Source of the DNA: Podarcis cretensis
Lineage: Eukaryota
DNA: 64,000 nucleotides
Direction: 5' to 3'
Assembly (NCBI GenBank): GCA_951804945.1
Contig: OX638150.1
Location: forward strand, 11,284,001 to 11,348,000
In this document: piece after piece, positions 33,120 to 57,561 of the stretch
Layout of the letters: each line of letters starts with the position of its first letter
How positions within the stretch are numbered: the stretch's first letter is position 1
Position numbers and translations under genes: made by a program
The notes under the pieces: model-generated
What the model was told of the DNA's origin: nothing
Database searches by the model: none
The model's input: only the letters and a program-made list of their open reading frames with translations

Positions 33120-33352
33120 TCACAATAAGGGATTTCCAGAGAAATACTGCAGGCGGTCTCTGCTTAGTTTTTTTTCTTTCATCCTTCTGTTCTGAAACCA
33201 AATTTTAACTTGTCGATCAGTGAGATTCAACATTCTGGACAGCTGCAGCCTTTTTTCTTTGTTTATGTAGACATTGAAGAAAAATTCTCTCTCTAGCTCT
33301 CTGATTTGGAATTTCGAATAGGGACATCGCTTCTTTCTTGTGCGGGGGGCAC
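33120..33352 (-). CDS. HOXC11: Homeobox protein Hox-C11, coding exon 2 (homeodomain)
   Basis: Translates to (S)[76 protein letters not shown]. Acceptor is a pyrimidine tract then cctaaag| at 33354-33353. Confidence 0.97.
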
Positions 33353-34783
33353 CTTTAGGGGGGAGGGAGGGAGAAAAATATAACCAGGAGGGAGTGAAAA
33401 TAACTAAGCAAATGACACAACAGAGCCCCAATAACCGCCCCCCCCCATCACCAAGATCTCAAATGCATAGCTTCTCTCTCACACGCACCCATCTGGAAGC
33501 ACATCCTACGGCCATGTGTAACATCCTAACAGACATGTGTACCACAACACAGCCATGAAGACAGCCTTTCCTGTTTCCAGCCCATGATCATTTTCCCCTG
33601 TTTTGGGGGGCTTTTCCAAAGGGATTCCTGAGTGCAATAATCAACAATAACTGCTGGGGGGAAGGAAGCCGGCGAAGCAGCTGGGAAGCATAGACGTTCA
33701 AACTGCAAATCTGCCGCCTTTCTTACAGAGTCAGCAGGAGCAACGTTAGAACTATGAGGGCTCAGAATTCTGCTCTGCATAAGTTTTTGATTATCGGGAA
33801 CGCCACCCTCCAAATACATTCAGCACACACATACACACAGAGAGAGAATCAAAGCAACATATCTGAGCAGTCTAAAAAAAGGGAAGCAATGTGTTTCCCA
33901 AGGCAGCAAACAGAATTGCAAACACAACGTGTGCGCGCGCCTGTGTGGGTGTGGGTGTGTAAGTTCATGCAGGACTTAGCCTTCCATTCACCTATGAATG
34001 AAAAAATAAATAAACATCCATGATGCATTTACTTGAACAGTTGCTTCGATTTAAGGTTGTTGTTGTTGCTTTAAAAATGAAAATAAACCCACTTATATAT
34101 GAATATCTAAAGGCATCTGAGTATATTAAAATATACTTAAAATGTGTGTGTGTGTGTGATAAACACATTTAATAGCAAAATAAGCATTGTCTATTTGAAA
34201 AGAAATCACCCAAAGAACTACGCCTAAGCAATGCAATTTGCAGGAAGAAAAGCAACAACAAGAGCAAGAAGAACAACACAGGATGCACTGAGGACATGAA
34301 AACGTTGCATTCCCTTTCCCCACATTCATAGCAATATAGATATATATTTGAATTTCTGCATGCATTTTCAATAAGGGAAAAAAATAACACCACCCGCCCC
34401 CCCCCGCTCGCTCGCGTGCATCTCTCAGTGCTTCCTCGCGAGGACAGGAAGCAAGAGCAGTGTTCTGCCCAATTGCCTTTTACCCTCAGAAGCCCGGGAC
34501 CAAATCCTTTTAAAATGCTCATGTAAGTTCATGATCAAAGTTAATATTTGTCACCATGGTGTGCTTTTAAAATTTCACAGACTCTGAGATACTGTGTCTG
34601 CGCCTAACATCTCCATTTTTCTCAAAGAGCCTTTCCCATCGTAAAAATTCTTCTCGTTGCAAGAAAGAGCTTTGTAGGTTATAATAAAATCCTTTGAATG
34701 CTTATAAAACTCCACATAAAATTTGACCGACAAAACAGCGGGCTAGTCCCTTAACCTTTCCATTTACTGCTTTCTCTACCTAC

Positions 34784-35462
34784 TCGAGTTGCTGGTTTTG
34801 CTCCCTTCCTTGTTGACAGAGGAGGATGAAGCTGAAGAGCCCGGGTTGGTGTTTTCTTCCTCGTCTTCCGGGTCTACGCCTTGGTCGCCGCGGGATGACA
34901 GCGCGGTGGGCTGGGAGTCGGTCTCCAGCTTGCTCTCGGTCTTCTGCAAACAGGTCTCGGGCGGGTTCTCGGTGGAGCAGTAGGCGTTTTCGAAGAACCG
35001 GTCGAAGCCTTGCGGGAGGACACTGTTTTTGTTCATGCTGGAGTAGAAGCCCGTGGACGCCGGGTGGTTGGAGCTAGGGTGGTGGTGGTGGCTGTACACG
35101 CTTTCGTTTTTCATTAGCATTTCGGTCATGGTGGAAGGCGGGAGGCAATCCCTGTGCATCAGATCTTCCGCGGAATAACACGAGGCGTAATTGCTTCTAT
35201 GGTGCCATTTATTCGAGGGGTCTAGCCCGTAGGAGACCTCTCGCACTGGCTGCACTTGAGAGAGGTTAGTGGAATAAGGGTAGGAGATTTGGCGAGAGGG
35301 GGCCTGTGGCAAAAAAGATGACACAGTTGAAAATTCTGGGACGTAATAGGTGCAGCTGGGGAGGTAGAGATTGGAAGCGCAACCTGCTCGCTCTCCAAAG
35401 TCAGCACTCCGCTCTTTGCGCGACTGGGAGCAGAAGTTTCCTAGGTTCACTGAGTTAAACAT
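34784..35462 (-). CDS. HOXC11: Homeobox protein Hox-C11, coding exon 1
   Basis: [18 protein letters not shown]...[34 protein letters not shown]...[15 protein letters not shown]. Donor A|GTAGGT at 34783. Exons of 679 + 233 nt give 303 aa; intron 1431 nt. Confidence 0.97.
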
Positions 35463-44963: not shown

Positions 44964-45329
44964 ACGTGTTTGCATCTTGCTGAAAGAGGAGTTGTTTGAA
45001 GTCTGCAATCCCGGAGGGGGGGGGGGAGAGGGAGGGGAAAAAAAAAACTTTCCAAGCAGCAGTCGTCATGCGGACTTCTGGTCTCATTCCCACATAGTCT
45101 CACCCTCCATGCACCCCCCACAGCCTTCCTCTTGATCGTTGCATTCAGATAGCCCCCCCTCCCTCAAAATAAGAATGGTGATGTAAAAGAGAGGGGAAAA
45201 TGGGCCCGGGGGGGGTGTTTAAAAAGAGAGACAGAGACCCATATGTTTACTCGGGTAAGAAATGCGATGGCCATTTAGCTCTGTTGTGACAAATCCATGA
45301 AAATGGAGGACCGCCGTATACCATATAAG
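44964..45329 (+). ncRNA. HOTAIR: Putative HOTAIR-orthologous segment (exon 3-like and exon 4-like blocks), antisense to HOXC
   Basis: Syntenic position and strand. GAAGTCTGCAAT...G-tract and ATGTTTAC...AGAAATGCGATGGCC...GAAAATGGAGGACCGCCG..CCATATAAG|GT resemble human HOTAIR exon 3 and exon 4 sequence as recalled. Possible acceptor at 44963 and donor at 45330. Transcription is not shown. Confidence 0.6.
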
Positions 45330-46512
45330 GTACGTAGGATGCTAACTTGACCTTCACTTTGTAATGGCGGCCCCCGCCCACCCAGACAGACTGTTGTAAA
45401 CAAAAGTCATCCGACCAAAAAAAAAAAAAAAAAAAAAAAAAGATTAGCACCGGGCAGACAAGGTCTCGCAGAATTGCTAACACATTTGCTGGTTTTTAAG
45501 CTGCGGCAAACGAGGTACAATATTCTCTGAACTACAGTAGGGGACGGAGTGGGGGTGGGGGATGGAGGAGGAGGAGGAAGAAGAAGAAGGGGGGCGGGCC
45601 TCATCATTGAAGATCAACAAAGGTCTCCCCAGATCTTTAGTTTGCTGTATTAAAGGGTTGTTAAGAGGGAGTCTTCCAATGCCGGGCTTCGTTTAGATTA
45701 CAGCGTCCGGAGCTGTTATTGAATGTGGCCTTGAGGTAGAGGGTGGCTGGGTGGCTGGGTGGGGGTGGCCGGCGCTTCTCTTAATGAATTTATCTGTCCA
45801 GATTCTTAAAAAAAAACAGCAATTCTTCATTACGATGACGACGAGGACGGACGATTTACGAATTCACTCTAATTTTAATGCAGGAGATCATTCAAAAAAT
45901 CGCCTCTGCTTTTATTTAAATCTATAGAATGTTTTGTTTACGTCAATCTGAAATGGAAAGTGTTAAAAGAAAGCGCGAGTAGCCTTCCTTCTTTCCTTTT
46001 TAAGGAAGGCAACGAGAGTCTCCCGACTCGCCATTTCCGCAGCAGCCAAATCACAACAGTGGCAAAAAGTTTGTCAGAGTGCAGAAAATAGGTTTCGTTT
46101 TCCTTTTCGAAATGCTGTGTTTGGGCCCAGGAAAAGGCTCGGTCCGTGATTGTCAGTGCGGGGAGTTCAGCCTTGTATGGTGGTGGCGGCTGTTTGCGGG
46201 GAGGGGGGGGGGAGGGAGGAGGAATCGAGACTGTACCTGATCAAACAATATAATTTATTTAACATACCTTTTTGCTTGTCAGTTACCTAGACATAATGGA
46301 GCGCTATCGATAGACGGGTCATGGATCCCGATCCACTGCACGTATTAGGCGATCGTCTCCATTTAAGTCATTTTATTCCCCTTTAAACCAACCTAGTAAT
46401 AATGGCCACCAAGTTATTGCATCTTTCACAAACTCAGAACTTTTAAAATCAGCGCCGCATACTTCACTGATGCAAGGCCGCCAGTCGTTTATATAGATGA
46501 GTAACTAGGAAA

Positions 46513-46615
46513 GGCACGACCAAAGACCAATTAATTTCAATGAGGAAGAATTAAGCACGTGCTTAATCGACAACAAGGGGACTTTCAAGCGCTCCACTTT
46601 GACTGGATCCTGCCC
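46513..46615. mobile_element. MITE relic (family B) with an 18-bp internal palindrome
   Basis: GGCACGACCAAAG ... CTTTGACTGGATCCTGCCC termini; central ATTAAGCACGTGCTTAAT at 46550-46567. Confidence 0.55.
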
Positions 46616-48280
46616 TTTCAGGAATACAGAGGAGGCAGTAAACTATAGGTTAGGCTGTTATTGTATCACTACATTCTGACGCAGATAACTGGCATAGCAA
46701 GCAGAGCATGTTTGCTTGTTTGTATCTTTATTTGTGTGTGTGTGCGCGCGCGCGCGGAGAAACACAACATTCGAATCATAAGCATGAAAAAGGGTGAACG
46801 TGTTCAAGTCTCTGTCGGCAAACACAACCACCTATTGCCCGGTCTTGGCAGGCTAATCGTCGCCTTCATTTCAAAGCTGCCCTCTCCCTTTGATTTTAGC
46901 AGCAGCTACTGGGAGGTGTGTTTTGTGGGTGTTTAAAGCCCTTCGTTTGGTGGCCCTACGTGTACCTCTGAGACGGAGTACATGCGTTCTCCTTTGTCAT
47001 TTACATCCAGAGCTCTGGATTTGTTCCTTTGAATATTTATTCCTTTATTCCTATGGCTGCTTTGTATGGCCCCTCACTGGCCCAAAATTTGCACTACCAC
47101 GCAAATGCATGCAGAATATGTGCAAATATTTTGCCCCCACTCAGTCAGGAATTCTCGAGGGACACAAGGGATGCCGGCAGCAGGACTTTGCTGATTGTGC
47201 AACCTTTAAAGGACAATTCGGTGGAACTCCCTCTTCAACTGCAGTAAATGGCAGAGCTCTCGCAGATTTTGATGGTGAGTCTTGGAAGGCGCTATCTGTT
47301 CGTTATTAGGACTCCCTCCTACCCCACCCTATTTCATATAATAATACTAATGATTCTTTCTTTCTCAAAACCTCACACAGCCTCATAATAGATTAATAGT
47401 TCTTCATCACAATGAGATGAATTTTCACATGCCCTTTAATTATCATCTCATCTCCAGCGAACACTGGTTTTGGAGAAGGTAAAGGGGGGTATTGGATACA
47501 ACTACAAAGATGGTTCCCCCCCCCCTTGGGAAGATTAATGTTGGCTGTGATTCTTAAAAGATCTTCAGATATAGCCCAGGCTGCTTGCATAACAACAATC
47601 AACTACCACAAGGCCTTCATCACATCACTTTATTAAAGGGGGAAAGTATTTTTAGCCTGTCTGTTTCAGACCCAGCCAACCATAAACAAAGATTCTTAAA
47701 TGCAAATGCGGTCTTATTTGGGTTCCAGAAAGGCAAATGAGATTTCTAACTTTTGGGCATGCCATAAAAGGAGAGTTTTTAAAGCCACCTTCACTCTTAA
47801 TTATGGGAAAGCCCTAGCGTTTCCAAATATAGGAAAACGACTCAGTCCAAGTTAAGCGTCAACTTGCTTCTGAGTAAAACTGGATAGGATCCGGCTGCAA
47901 AATTTATCGCTTTCAAGTGGGAGAGATTTAAACACCTGCTTTGAGGCTGCAGTCATAGGCAGACACATTTACTTGGGAATAAGTAAATAGGGGTAGTATG
48001 AGGGAGCACATCTCTCTGAACTCTATAGAACTCCATAGCCCTTAACTCAAGCTAGAATGTGTGCACATTTCCTTTCAAATTAAGGTTATTGGGAGATACA
48101 CGTAGACATAACCTCATGTTGTTGTTAGTTTGTTGGTTGGTAAGTGAGTGGTTTTCTTTAATTGATTCATCAACTCTGCTGGTTAACATAATCTCGCAGA
48201 AACAAAGCCTGGCTGTAAGAAATTCTAAGCAAACTCTTATGGCTCCTGCAAGGAATACAAATGTATCCATCTTTGTATCT

Positions 48281-48470
48281 TTCCTATCCTTTTCATCTTT
48301 ATTATCACTCTTGTTAACAACACCAGCGAGGCTTGATACATATATCTCGTTTAAATGCAGTCAGCCATGAAGCCACTGCAGTTGGTTGCTACAGACATAT
48401 TAATTAATTTATTCTCTCAACAGTAAAATATTGCTGTGTCTCCTTGCTACCAACCAAGTCATATAAAAAT
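48281..48470 (+). ncRNA. HOTAIR: Putative HOTAIR terminal-exon (exon 6-like) conserved block
   Basis: TTCATCTTTATTAT..CTTGTTAACAACACCAGCGAG..TATCTC..TCAGCC..TAATTAATTTATTC..AGTAAAATATTGCTGTGTCT is collinear with the recalled human HOTAIR last-exon sequence CATCTTTATGATG..CTTGTTAACAAGACCAGAGAG..TAATTAATTGATTC..TGTAAAATATGGCGGCGTCT. Confidence 0.6.
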
Positions 48471-48859
48471 CAGGGTTTATTTTTTTACCCCCTCTGCAGT
48501 TCATTAGGCTTTACCTATAAGTTTCCATTTGAAATGATTTGCTTTAAAACTAATTACTCGTATTCTATTTCATTTCCCAATCCCGGAGTGTAAGATGGAT
48601 TCAAAGGTGGCGTGGGTGGCATATGTTGGTAAACATTGCTAATTATTCCCACTCTGTCTTGATTGTGTATTTATGAACCCACCCATATAAAAGGGGGAGA
48701 AAATACTCAGTAAAAGGTGCGCTGGCATATTGATGATAATGGCACATGTTACTTAAAAGAGTGCAGTGTCGCTAGGGACAGTGTAAGATGATAATGTATC
48801 AGCCGAGATTTTGTTTAGCAGATTTCCACTTTGAGAATAAAATATTGGACTCACTTGCA

Positions 48860-49054
48860 GCACATTCCAATACACACCGACTCAGAAGTGAGCCTCTTTG
48901 AGATTAGGCAACGTGGTGCCCTCCAGGTGTGGTGGACTGCCAAAGCCTATCAGTCCAAGGCAGCATGTCCAATGGTCAGGGATGATGGGAGTTGGAGTCC
49001 AACATCTGCAGAACACCACAGTAGACTATTCATGGTGTATATAGGACTGCAGTC
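48860..49054. mobile_element. Family A MITE apparently split by a palindromic hAT-like MITE (about 48905-49022)
   Basis: The family A left half (ACTCAGAAGTGAGCC) and right end (ATAGGACTGCAGTC) flank an element with imperfect inverted arms at 48913-48938 and 48996-49019 and a GGGATGATGGGAGTTG core. Confidence 0.55.
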
Positions 49055-49226
49055 TCAGGGTAAGGAAGAAGAGAATGAGGACCAGAATTGCACACTGGGA
49101 TGACAGCAGAAGGCCCAAGCATAGGCTAGCCCTGCCCAATGTCTACAGTGCTCCAGGTGTATTCAGAAAAGACTGTTTTGGGGCCATGGCTTCTAGGGAA
49201 TTTCAGGGACCTCTGTTTGCCTAATC

Positions 49227-49478
49227 CAGGGGTAGGCAACCTAAGGCCCAGGGGCCAGATGCGGCCCAATCGCCTTCTCAATCTGGCTTGTGGACGGTCC
49301 AGGAATCCGTGTGTTTTTACATGAGTAGAATGTGTCCTTTTATTTAAAATGCATCTATGGGTTATTTGTGGGGCATAGGAATTCATTTATTTTCCCCCTC
49401 CAAAATATAGTCTGGCCCCCCACATGGTCTGAGGGACGGTGAACAGGCCCATGGCTGAAAAAGGTTGCTGACCTCCTG
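49227..49478. mobile_element. Non-autonomous hAT (Charlie-like) DNA transposon / MITE, 252 bp
   Basis: TIRs CAGGGGTAGGCAACCT ... AGGTTGCTGACCTCCTG. Flanks GCCTAATC and GCCCTAATC approximate an 8-bp TSD with central TA. Subterminal GGCCC repeats are typical of hAT elements. Confidence 0.85.
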
Positions 49479-49794
49479 GCCCTAATCTTTGAGTAAATGC
49501 TGGCACATAGCTTCAATTGCAATCTCACTTCCAAACAAGTGGGCAGGGCAGACCACTTGCCAGGGGAGCTAGTTGATGGTTACACCTCCTGGGCTGATAC
49601 ACTTCCTTAATCCCAATGGCAAGGATTTGATCCTCTGTGTTTGCATTTGCTGAAGAGAAGGTATGCCCACATCAGCGCTGTTAAGGTATTTATTTACCCC
49701 TCCAGGGATATCTCTTCTGGTGTGGCTGAGGACTAGTATTGAAATAAAATCAGAAATGAGGGGAAAGTAGATGTTGCTTTCATTAAGCAGCATC

Positions 49795-50025
49795 TAAGAG
49801 TCCTCTCTGATGTGGTTTTAAGCTCTTCTGATGTGTTAGCCCTCTCAAATGGAAAACAATGGGTCTTAAAGTGTGTTTAACTCTGACTGGATAGGATCTA
49901 TCATTATCATGATGAAGAATCCAAGAAAAGGTAACCACTTTAAAGTCCTGTTGATTACAGTAGGGTAATCAGAGTTAAACACCTGATTAACTCAAAGAGC
50001 TTTTAATTTTGAGTAGATCGTGCCC
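49795..50025. mobile_element. One or two adjacent family B MITE relics
   Basis: Ends in GATCGTGCCC like 42645-42653. Perfect 14-bp inverted repeat at 49873-49886 and 49969-49982. Confidence 0.5.
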
Positions 50026-52375: not shown

Positions 52376-52465
52376 GGCTGTAACGCTACACAAATTTACC
52401 TGCGAGTTAATTCCATTGAACTTAATGGGGCTTACTTCTGGGTAGGCATGTAGAGAATTGAACTC
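52376..52465. mobile_element. Family A MITE relic (clearest copy)
   Basis: Central hairpin CCATTGAACTTAATGG, then GGGGCTTACTTC, the exact reverse complement of GAAGTAAGCCCC in the 57.5 kb copy. GGCTG start and a flanking TTA/TAA. Confidence 0.6.
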
Positions 52466-53316: not shown

Positions 53317-54584
53317 CGGGTTGGGGGGAGGAGAGAGGAGTTAGCAAACTACATCACCGATCTCTAACAATTGCCTTCGCGCAATCTCTTTCTTTCCTTA
53401 ATGCACCTATACCATAAGAACACAGGACCTCTTTGCAAGGAAGTGCCTTCTTCTAATAACAGGACTAAAGAAAGCGGAGAGAATAGACTGGCATAAACTC
53501 ACACCTATCCTATTCCCACTTATTAAGAGCCGAAGGCGCAAAGGATTCTACATGGGAATGAGCAGTTCTTGATCCGCTTTTTGGACATGGTCTCTCCCTC
53601 CTCCCCTTCACAATCCACTTATTGATCTTTTAAAAGGGTTTTGGCGTGCGCGCGCCTGCCGGTGTGTGTATTAATGCATTGCTCCAGCCGCCACTAAACT
53701 TTATGGTTGAACCGAAGACCTGAAAGGTGGATAAAGCCATTACATGTAAATCTTCCTTTCCAGAGGAAGATTCCACCTCTCTCTCTCTCCCTATACATAC
53801 ATACATACATACATACATGCATGCATGCATGCATACACCCCCATCCCCTACCACTCATACAACCTACACAATTCATGAAATTTAAATTGACTCTGTGGAA
53901 TCGCTGCTATAAAGGCACCTGGCTGGATATTCAGAAGAGAGAATAAAACACGACGCCAACGGGAGGAATTAAATATGGGCTTATTGAAGAAGATCGAATC
54001 CAAGGCTCGTGAGGGTTTTTGTGCTTTGTTTTGGAGGTGGGGTATTTGTTTGTTTTTGTTTATATTACAAGAGTTGCAGATTTAAATAAAAGTGTCTCTT
54101 AATTTAAAAAAAAAAAACATCCATGTTATTTTAAATAAATAAATATCTTCCCCCTTTAATCTAGGGGAACTTTGTCTTGGCCTCAGTTGCTCCTGAAAGG
54201 GGACAAAAAGAAATAGACTGGTGACACCTCTCTTTCCCAGAGAACAAAATATCAGTAATGATTGGGTTTATAAGCAAGGCCATCAGGAGACCCCCCCCCA
54301 AAAAAAACCCTTATATTCGCATTAAACATTAACATCCCAGATTCATTTACTCTCTTATCTTCTTGGATTTTTTTTTAATTATAGGTATCATTGTGCTCCG
54401 AGGCACCCCTTACTTTACAACCTATTTTATATATCCACCTAATTATTTTTTTTAAGGGAAACATGATCTATATACCTCCAAATGTTTCATTGGCTTATTT
54501 CTGTGCGCGCGCGCTACTCTTTTACTAAGCTCTCTCGGTCCTCCAACAGTCGATAGTAAATCACCAACCAGAGGTTTGAAACAT

Positions 54585-56928: not shown

Positions 56929-57059
56929 NNNNNNNNNNNNNNNNNNNNNNNNNNNNNNNNNNNNNNNNNNNNNNNNNNNNNNNNNNNNNNNNNNNNNNNN
57001 NNNNNNNNNNNNNNNNNNNNNNNNNNNNNNNNNNNNNNNNNNNNNNNNNNNNNNNNNNN
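56929..57059. other. Assembly gap (131 N)
   Basis: Run of n characters. Confidence 1.
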
Positions 57060-57483: not shown

Positions 57484-57561
57484 GCGCAATTCTACACAGG
57501 TCTACTCTGAAGTAAGCCCCCCTGCTAAACCCCAGCATGCAAAGGAGTATAGGGTTGCAGC
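57484..57561. mobile_element. Truncated family A MITE relic
   Basis: GCGCAATTCTACACAGGTCTACTCTGAAGTAAGCCCC ... TATAGGGTTGCAGC, with a 12-bp exact inverted match to the 52.4 kb copy. Confidence 0.55.

What the first reader, a model, noticed from the sequence alone, without database searches (positions are those of the whole stretch)
48281..48470. Third collinear block resembling the conserved core of the HOTAIR last exon
Seen: several ordered motifs (CATCTTTAT, CTTGTTAACAA, ACCAG, TATCTC, TCAGCC, TAATTAATT, GTAAAATAT) about 3 kb after the exon 4-like donor on the same strand. They match the recalled human exon 6 in order. Three blocks in the right order and orientation make chance less likely. 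TAATTAATT and TTTAT are homeodomain-type sites, so the block could equally be an enhancer.
Basis: partly seen in the sequence, partly recalled or inferred. Interest (0 to 1): 0.75.

Follow-up and report, generated by a model that had tools for sequence, protein, structure and literature searches.

The report
Lizard copy of HOTAIR's conserved core
A lizard Hox cluster keeps a short stretch of non-coding DNA that matches the most conserved part of the mammalian long RNA HOTAIR, so this stretch is older than mammals, and it is more likely a gene-control element in the DNA than evidence of a working lizard HOTAIR RNA.

Summary
The window is the posterior HoxC cluster of a lacertid lizard (HoxC12 exon 1 is 100% identical to a Zootoca record). 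All 7 motifs lie in order at 48294-48431, with spacers close to human. Rfam HOTAIR_2 matches 48283-48348 (E 1.4e-8) and HOTAIR_1 matches 48393-48430 (weak alone). They are collinear with an exon 4-like block, its splice donor and the known 32-nt CNE about 3 kb upstream. The block is the orthologue of 'domain B' of HOTAIR exon 6, which He et al. 2011 called mammal-only (no squamate was tested). No score reaches an Rfam cut-off. No other HOTAIR part was found, and transcription could not be tested. What persists is short AT-rich islands, two of them palindromes, at fixed spacing. A predicted hairpin is stable in the lizard but is broken in 5 of 10 mammals. Best reading (0.6): an amniote-old DNA cis-regulatory element for posterior HoxC genes, overlapped by HOTAIR in mammals. 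Main rival (0.2): RNA-level constraint. It is a real but modest extension of a known locus.

The parts
48281..48470 (+). Orthologue of HOTAIR exon 6 domain B (conserved non-coding block); core 48294-48431, 35% GC, 2 CpG
   Evidence: by-eye comparison with 10 mammals in He et al. supplement S2
48283..48348 (+). Sub-block 1 = Rfam HOTAIR_2 region (reported on - because the model is antisense to the RNA); holds the TTTAT site, the TGTTAACA palindrome, ACCAG and TATCTC
   Evidence: 47.5 bits, E 1.4e-8, gathering score 60 not met; 38 of the first 48 ungapped columns identical to human by eye
48393..48430 (+). Sub-block 2 = Rfam HOTAIR_1 region; holds the AATTAATT palindrome and most of GTAAAATAT
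   Evidence: 22.9 bits, E 2.1, E 0.5 in a 5.5 kb scan, gathering score 44 not met; same 44-nt gap from sub-block 1 as in human
48393..48441 (+). Predicted hairpin (stem B, arms 48393-48399 and 48435-48441) if transcribed in HOTAIR sense
   Evidence: Pair probabilities 0.89-1.0 in 5 of 5 contexts; equivalent 6-bp stem intact in 5 of 10 mammals by eye
45226..45329 (+). HOTAIR exon 4-like block (Rfam HOTAIR_3), ending in a consensus-like donor with GT at 45330
   Evidence: 33.1 bits, E 8.3e-4, gathering score 80 not met; donor sequence; human exon 4 end
45342..45373 (+). 32-nt jawed-vertebrate CNE of Nepal et al., 12 nt into the intron (8 nt in human)
   Evidence: 30 of 32 identical to the human HOXC copy in Table S1, by eye
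33120..35462 (-). HoxC11 coding region (two exons), flanking gene; name from its translation and cluster position (recalled), not searched
   Evidence: ORFs; start codon
58755..61153 (-). HoxC12 coding region (two exons), flanking gene
   Evidence: ORFs; exon 1 100% identical to a Zootoca vivipara Hox-C12 record, 95% king cobra, 67% wombat

Best explanation
The block is the lizard orthologue of HOTAIR exon 6 domain B (shown), so it was present in the amniote ancestor (inferred from lizard plus mammals). It most likely acts as DNA: a compact cluster of transcription-factor sites that helps set HoxC11/HoxC12 expression in posterior trunk, hindlimb or genital tissue. The candidate sites are a posterior-Hox/Cdx-type TTTAT, a homeodomain TAATTA palindrome, a forkhead- or Sox-like TGTTAACA and a GATA-like site (labels recalled, not scanned). 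In mammals the antisense HOTAIR transcript runs across it, so it appears as the most conserved part of the last exon. Shown: sequence, position, order, spacing. Inferred: the binding factors, the target gene, the tissue and enhancer activity itself.
For: (1) Conservation sits in 5-11 nt islands, mostly AT-rich, at near-fixed spacing; each of the 7 motifs is intact in 8-10 of 10 mammals by eye. The GC-rich linkers turned over: human core about 53% GC and 7 CpG by eye, lizard 35% and 2 CpG. (2) Two 8-bp palindromes (TGTTAACA, AATTAATT) are invariant in 10 of 10 mammals and the lizard, which suits double-stranded binding (inference). (3) The block (about nt 950-1190) lies outside the mapped PRC2 (nt 1-300) and LSD1 (nt 1500-2146) regions and away from the one covarying stem named in the text I read (1427-1451). 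(4) R-scape finds 0 covarying pairs in HOTAIR domains D2 and D3 where about 29-30 were expected (Rivas 2021). (5) The neighbouring conserved block has enhancer chromatin in human and mouse (Nepal). (6) Deleting mouse Hotair altered Hoxc11/Hoxc12 in cis, not Hoxd in trans (Amandio). (7) Indels of -3, +2 and -1 against human argue against coding.
Against: No enhancer assay or chromatin data for this block was found in any species. Amandio et al. explain their cis effects by lost terminators and new read-through transcripts, not by an enhancer. Short ordered motifs are also what RNA-binding proteins would preserve. The exon 4 donor is retained in the lizard, which suggests a spliced antisense transcript. 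The lizard sequence folds better than its shuffles on the HOTAIR-sense strand (z -3.2, 2 of 200; 4 of 1000 with motifs fixed). CpG is depleted around the block (o/e 0.10-0.35 over 47.5-49.9 kb), which may indicate germline methylation. The motif labels come from memory.
Confidence: 0.6

Rival explanations
1. RNA-level constraint: a spliced antisense HOTAIR existed in the amniote ancestor and is still made in lizards, and domain B is kept as linear protein- or RNA-binding motifs, partly shown on a hairpin (stem B).
For: Exon 4-like block with an intact donor, same strand and order. HOTAIR-position transcript reported in coelacanth. Stem B pair probability at least 0.89 in 5 of 5 contexts. One stem pair is G-C in apes and A-U in mouse and lizard. 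He et al. predicted a recurrent GC-rich paired fragment in domain B, and the lizard can form a 6-bp stem around the same motif.
Against: Stem B loses 1-2 of 6 pairs in 5 of 10 mammals (rat, dog, cow, horse, dolphin); the 'compensated' pair is a mismatch in all five and sits at CpG sites. The second stem arises at 118 of 2,972 background sites (4%) and falls to probability 0.17 or less in wider contexts. The fold z-score ranked 1 of 150 only on a grid anchored on the block. On an unanchored grid the four windows overlapping it most scored -0.6, 0.0, 0.0 and -1.7, while 8 of 569 others reached -3 or lower. No exon 5 match above chance. No further HOTAIR family hit.
Confidence: 0.2
2. Transcription boundary: the block helps terminate or insulate Hox-strand read-through (HoxC12 or Anti-Hotair) before it reaches HoxC11.
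For: AATAAA occurs on the Hox strand at 48298 and 48408 in the lizard. In mouse the deletion removed termination sites on both strands and let Anti-Hotair leak into Hoxc11.
Against: Neither hexamer is canonical in the 10 mammals. Mouse Anti-Hotair ends near the Hotair 3' end, about 1.3 kb from domain B. The hexamer is common here (13 copies on that strand in 45-52.5 kb).
Confidence: 0.07
3. Relic or passive conservation: once functional, or simply slow-evolving inside a Hox cluster, and without present function in lizards.
For: Scores fall below all Rfam cut-offs. CpG-poor surroundings and a likely transposon about 0.8 kb downstream. Mouse deletions of the exon have little phenotype.
Against: About 79% identity over 48 ungapped columns, and spacing held within 3 nt, after roughly 320 million years (date recalled). 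The lizard keeps the same islands that are invariant among mammals, while the rest of the 23 kb gives no Rfam HOTAIR signal apart from exon 4.
Confidence: 0.1
4. Chance resemblance of AT-rich motifs.
For: HOTAIR_1 alone has E 2.1; two motifs are only 5-6 nt and are common.
Against: HOTAIR_2 E 1.4e-8 at the syntenic position, in the right order, strand and spacing; no HOTAIR hit in the 35.5 kb control.
Confidence: 0.01

Closest known systems
HOTAIR exon 6 domain B (He et al. 2011, PMC3103462; Rfam RF01905 HOTAIR_2 and RF01904 HOTAIR_1)
   Same: Same place between HoxC11 and HoxC12, same strand, same seven motifs in order, near-identical spacing.
   Different: Non-mammalian host. 35% against about 53% GC. 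GC-rich linkers not conserved. Below gathering scores. No evidence of transcription.
HOTAIR CNE / exon 4 enhancer (Nepal et al. 2020, PMC7139118; Rfam RF01906 HOTAIR_3)
   Same: Present 3 kb upstream in this window (30 of 32 nt); a precedent for a HOTAIR piece that predates mammals and carries enhancer marks.
   Different: A separate element. Nepal et al. state that the remainder of HOTAIR has limited homology in vertebrates; their Table S1 lists no squamate, and no HoxD paralogue of domain B was tested here.
Mammalian HOTAIR lncRNA as PRC2/LSD1 scaffold (NR_003716)
   Same: Locus position, antisense orientation, exon 4-like block with donor, and domain B.
   Different: No trace found of exons 1-3 (PRC2 region), exon 5, domain A or the 3' LSD1 region, though the tests were limited to Rfam models and one motif; scaffold function untestable.
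Hox-cluster conserved non-coding elements in general (for example the 356 caecilian Hox CNEs in PMC4470032)
   Same: Short intergenic block with homeodomain-type motifs conserved across tetrapod lineages.
   Different: This one is exonic in a much-studied mammalian lncRNA.

Membership tests
HOTAIR locus orthologue (DNA) | Lies between HoxC11 and HoxC12 | tested here: met
   (HoxC12 confirmed by search; HoxC11 by translation and order, recalled)
HOTAIR locus orthologue (DNA) | Blocks read antisense to the Hox genes in order exon 4, CNE, exon 6 domain B | tested here: met
HOTAIR locus orthologue (DNA) | Significant similarity to exon 6 domain B | tested here: met
   HOTAIR_2 E 1.4e-8; by-eye comparison
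Rfam HOTAIR_2 / HOTAIR_1 / HOTAIR_3 | Score at or above the gathering threshold (60 / 44 / 80 bits) | tested here: not met
   47.5 / 22.9 / 33.1 bits
HOTAIR lncRNA gene | Transcribed, spliced, polyadenylated antisense RNA | not testable with these tools
   No expression data; donor present, 8 acceptor-like sites and AATAAA at 48836 and 49743 on + are not specific
HOTAIR lncRNA gene | 5' exons 1-3 (PRC2 region), exon 5, domain A and 3' LSD1 region | tested here: inconclusive
   No further HOTAIR Rfam hit at E<=10; exon 5 motif 4 matches against 3.64 expected, none in the interval; no full alignment to human was run
HOTAIR lncRNA gene | Binds PRC2/LSD1 or acts in trans on HoxD | not testable with these tools
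   Disputed even in mouse
Conserved structured RNA | Covariation-supported helices | tested here: inconclusive
   By-eye pair count on 11 sequences: stem B intact in the lizard and 5 of 10 mammals; no R-scape run; fold score not outstanding on an unbiased grid
Developmental enhancer (Hox CNE) | Deeply conserved non-coding block with clustered transcription-factor-like motifs | tested here: met
   factor names recalled, no matrix scan
Developmental enhancer (Hox CNE) | Open chromatin, H3K27ac and orientation-independent reporter activity | not testable with these tools
   No data found for this block

The most novel reading that the evidence does not exclude
A spliced HOTAIR with exon 4 joined to a domain B exon dates from the amniote ancestor, and domain B is a true RNA module: AU-rich protein-binding motifs held in a hairpin whose stem is kept from lizard to mouse and human. 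The function of HOTAIR would then lie in nt 950-1190, not in the much-studied PRC2 and LSD1 ends, and reptile genomes would supply the sequence divergence that covariation tests on mammals have lacked.
Probability: 0.15. Interest if true: 0.72.

Novelty: new member of a known kind. Interest (0 to 1): 0.36.

Why it matters
Whether HOTAIR works as RNA or marks regulatory DNA is a long-running dispute. He et al. 2011 called domain B the backbone of a gene born in marsupials, and a 2021 review lists orthologues only in rodents, carnivores, primates and marsupials. A lizard orthologue moves this block back to the amniote ancestor. It also narrows the constrained sequence to about 55 nt in seven motifs, which gives precise bases to mutate. 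The surprise is limited: the neighbouring CNE was already traced to sharks and a HOTAIR-position transcript to coelacanth, Yu et al. noted weak conservation in frog, and public multi-species alignments probably already show this match (not checkable here).

Tried and rejected
Rfam at gathering threshold: only mir-196 in the window. Exon 5 motif search: 4 matches against 3.64 expected, none between exon 4 and the block; two by-eye candidates near 47,680 and 48,060 were rejected as too weak. Narrower Rfam scans found no further HOTAIR family. Folding as evidence: the top rank (1 of 150, scan stopped at 53,501) came from a grid anchored on the block and vanished on an independent grid. Stem A was rejected as common and context-dependent. 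Protein coding was rejected: the two stop-to-stop frames over the 5' half are unremarkable and indels against human shift the frame. Tandem or dispersed repeat origin: none at the block. Tammar sequence: the motif was not found in 7 readable supplement files, and the .doc file holding it cannot be read. Nine paper searches returned no paper, by listing or passage, reporting HOTAIR exon 6 homology in a squamate or testing this block as an enhancer. PMC6984365, PMC12979699, PMC5179926 and PMC3091776 gave nothing on this block. Not run: a computed alignment to human HOTAIR or to other reptiles; no vertebrate genome collection is available, and the bacterial, phage and plasmid collections were judged irrelevant.

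Full report
Setting. Stop-to-stop frames show four two-exon Hox genes on the - strand, with mir-196 at 14199-14272. The most 5' gene is HoxC12: its first exon (187 aa) is 100% identical to a Zootoca vivipara record, 95% to king cobra, 82-84% to several birds and 67% to wombat. Zootoca is a lacertid lizard. One exon does not fix the species, so I say lacertid lizard. The other genes are named HoxC9, C10 and C11 from their translations and order (recalled, not searched). The finding lies in the 23 kb HoxC11-HoxC12 interval, where HOTAIR lies in mammals.

Observation. All seven motifs are present in order on + between 48294 and 48431. He et al. 2011 print HOTAIR exons for 10 mammals in transcript sense (supplement S2; I read parts 1, 2, 4 and 5 of 5). 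By eye the human spacers are 7,1,19,12,32,14 against 7,1,16,12,34,13 here, the spans are 140 and 138 nt, and 38 of the first 48 ungapped columns are identical. The seven motifs are intact in 9, 8, 8, 10, 9, 10 and 9 of the 10 mammals. This is the segment they call domain B of exon 6 (about nt 950-1190). The best two by E-value are HOTAIR_2 at 48283-48348 (47.5 bits, E 1.4e-8) and HOTAIR_3 at 45226-45328 (33.1 bits, E 8.3e-4); HOTAIR_1 follows at 48393-48430 (22.9 bits, E 2.1). HOTAIR_1 is weak alone but sits 44 nt from HOTAIR_2, as in human. None reaches its gathering score. The control region 1-35500 gave no HOTAIR hit among 47 rows. The shuffle test (best chain 2 of 7 motifs in 500 shuffles) agrees but is biased by hindsight.

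Strand and collinearity. The exon 4-like block ends at 45329 in a consensus-like donor. Twelve bases later comes the 32-nt CNE of Nepal et al., 30 of 32 identical to the human HOXC copy. The donor-to-block distance is 2,965 nt against 2,278 in human. So there are two independent loci, exon 4 plus CNE and domain B, in the right order. Nothing else of HOTAIR was detected: no further Rfam family and no exon 5 motif above chance. These tests are narrow; a full alignment to human was not run.

RNA or DNA. The lizard + strand folds better than its shuffles (z -2.8 for 48281-48470; z -3.2 for 48341-48460; 4 of 1000 shuffles with four motifs fixed). One hairpin, stem B, is stable in all five contexts tried, and the equivalent arms pair fully in human, chimpanzee, gorilla, rhesus and mouse. 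Against this, rat and dog lose one of six pairs and cow, horse and dolphin lose two. The one pair that looks compensated is a mismatch in those five and involves CpG sites, which mutate fast. The block ranked first of 150 windows only when the grid was anchored on it; on an independent grid it did not stand out. A second stem around TCAGCC is of a kind found at 4% of background sites and dissolves in longer contexts. Rivas 2021 reports variation without covariation in all four HOTAIR domains (passages). Perry et al. 2026 find primate covariation mainly in domain 3, naming a stem at nt 1427-1451 (parts 1-4 of 8 read); their table of pairs is in a closed supplement, so pairs near nt 1070-1120 cannot be excluded. 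What lizard and mammals share is short, mostly AT-rich islands, two of them palindromic, at held spacing, while base composition moved from about 53% to 35% GC. The block lies outside the mapped PRC2 and LSD1 regions. The adjacent conserved block has enhancer marks (Nepal preprint parts 1-2 of 5 and passages; iScience passages). Mouse Hotair deletion acts in cis on Hoxc11 and Hoxc12, although the authors ascribe this to lost terminators (Amandio passages). I therefore favour a DNA cis-element (0.6) over RNA-level constraint (0.2), a relic (0.1), a termination element (0.07) and chance (0.01). The two leading readings can both hold: an antisense transcript may exist in lizards while the constraint is on the DNA.

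Comparison with what is known. He et al. [quoted passage not shown] Their 'kangaroo' assembly is dipOrd1, which I recall as the kangaroo rat, a rodent. Yu et al. (passages) found exons 4-6 in tammar and much lower conservation in frog. Schorderet and Duboule (passages) found only about 400 bp of the large exon above 75% identity between mouse and human. Nepal et al. traced the CNE to sharks, list transcript evidence in coelacanth, list no squamate, and say the remainder has limited homology in vertebrates. Their figures S1B and S1E, which could already show this block, are in a file too large to read. A 2021 review lists mammalian orthologues only (passages). Nine searches showed no report of the exon 6 block in a squamate; the library lacks most subscription papers.

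Verdict. Real, correctly identified, and a new member of a known kind: the lizard orthologue of a known conserved region. It dates domain B to the amniote ancestor and sharpens a testable question, but it does not show a lizard HOTAIR RNA. Interest 0.36. The bold reading, an amniote-old RNA module, has probability about 0.15 and would merit about 0.72.

Noticed in passing
window 45226-48430: The three Rfam HOTAIR models that hit are the reverse complement of the transcript and numbered from its 3' side, so their reported strand (-) is the Hox strand, not the RNA strand.
   Followed up: yes
PMC3103462, note added in proof: The 'kangaroo' assembly behind the marsupial-origin claim is named dipOrd1, which I recall as the kangaroo rat, a rodent; tammar HOTAIR was shown separately by Yu et al..
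   Followed up: partly
window 45342-45373: The 32-nt CNE of Nepal et al. is present (30 of 32); their Table S1 lists no squamate. It lies 12 nt from the donor, against 8 in human.
   Followed up: yes
window 47500-49900: CpG-depleted stretch (o/e 0.10-0.35) around the block, against mostly 0.4-0.95 in the rest of the interval; the human block is CpG-rich.
   Followed up: partly
window 49225-49480: A ~255-nt stretch that looks like a squamate hAT-type miniature transposon (recalled resemblance), inside what would be the 3' part of the last exon.
   Followed up: no
window 48298-48303 and 48408-48413: Two lizard-specific changes create AATAAA on the Hox strand inside the conserved block; mammals have non-canonical hexamers there.
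   Followed up: partly
window 14199-14272: mir-196 precursor on the - strand between HoxC10 and HoxC9, 87.2 bits, as expected.
   Followed up: yes
window 20315-21235: HoxC10 exon 1 carries a long proline/glutamine tract, possibly lineage-specific.
   Followed up: no
window 56929-57059: Assembly gap of about 130 N in the HoxC11-HoxC12 interval.
   Followed up: no
window 52427-52460 and 57487-57520: Inverted pair of 34-nt repeat fragments, 82% complementary, probably retrotransposon tails.
   Followed up: no
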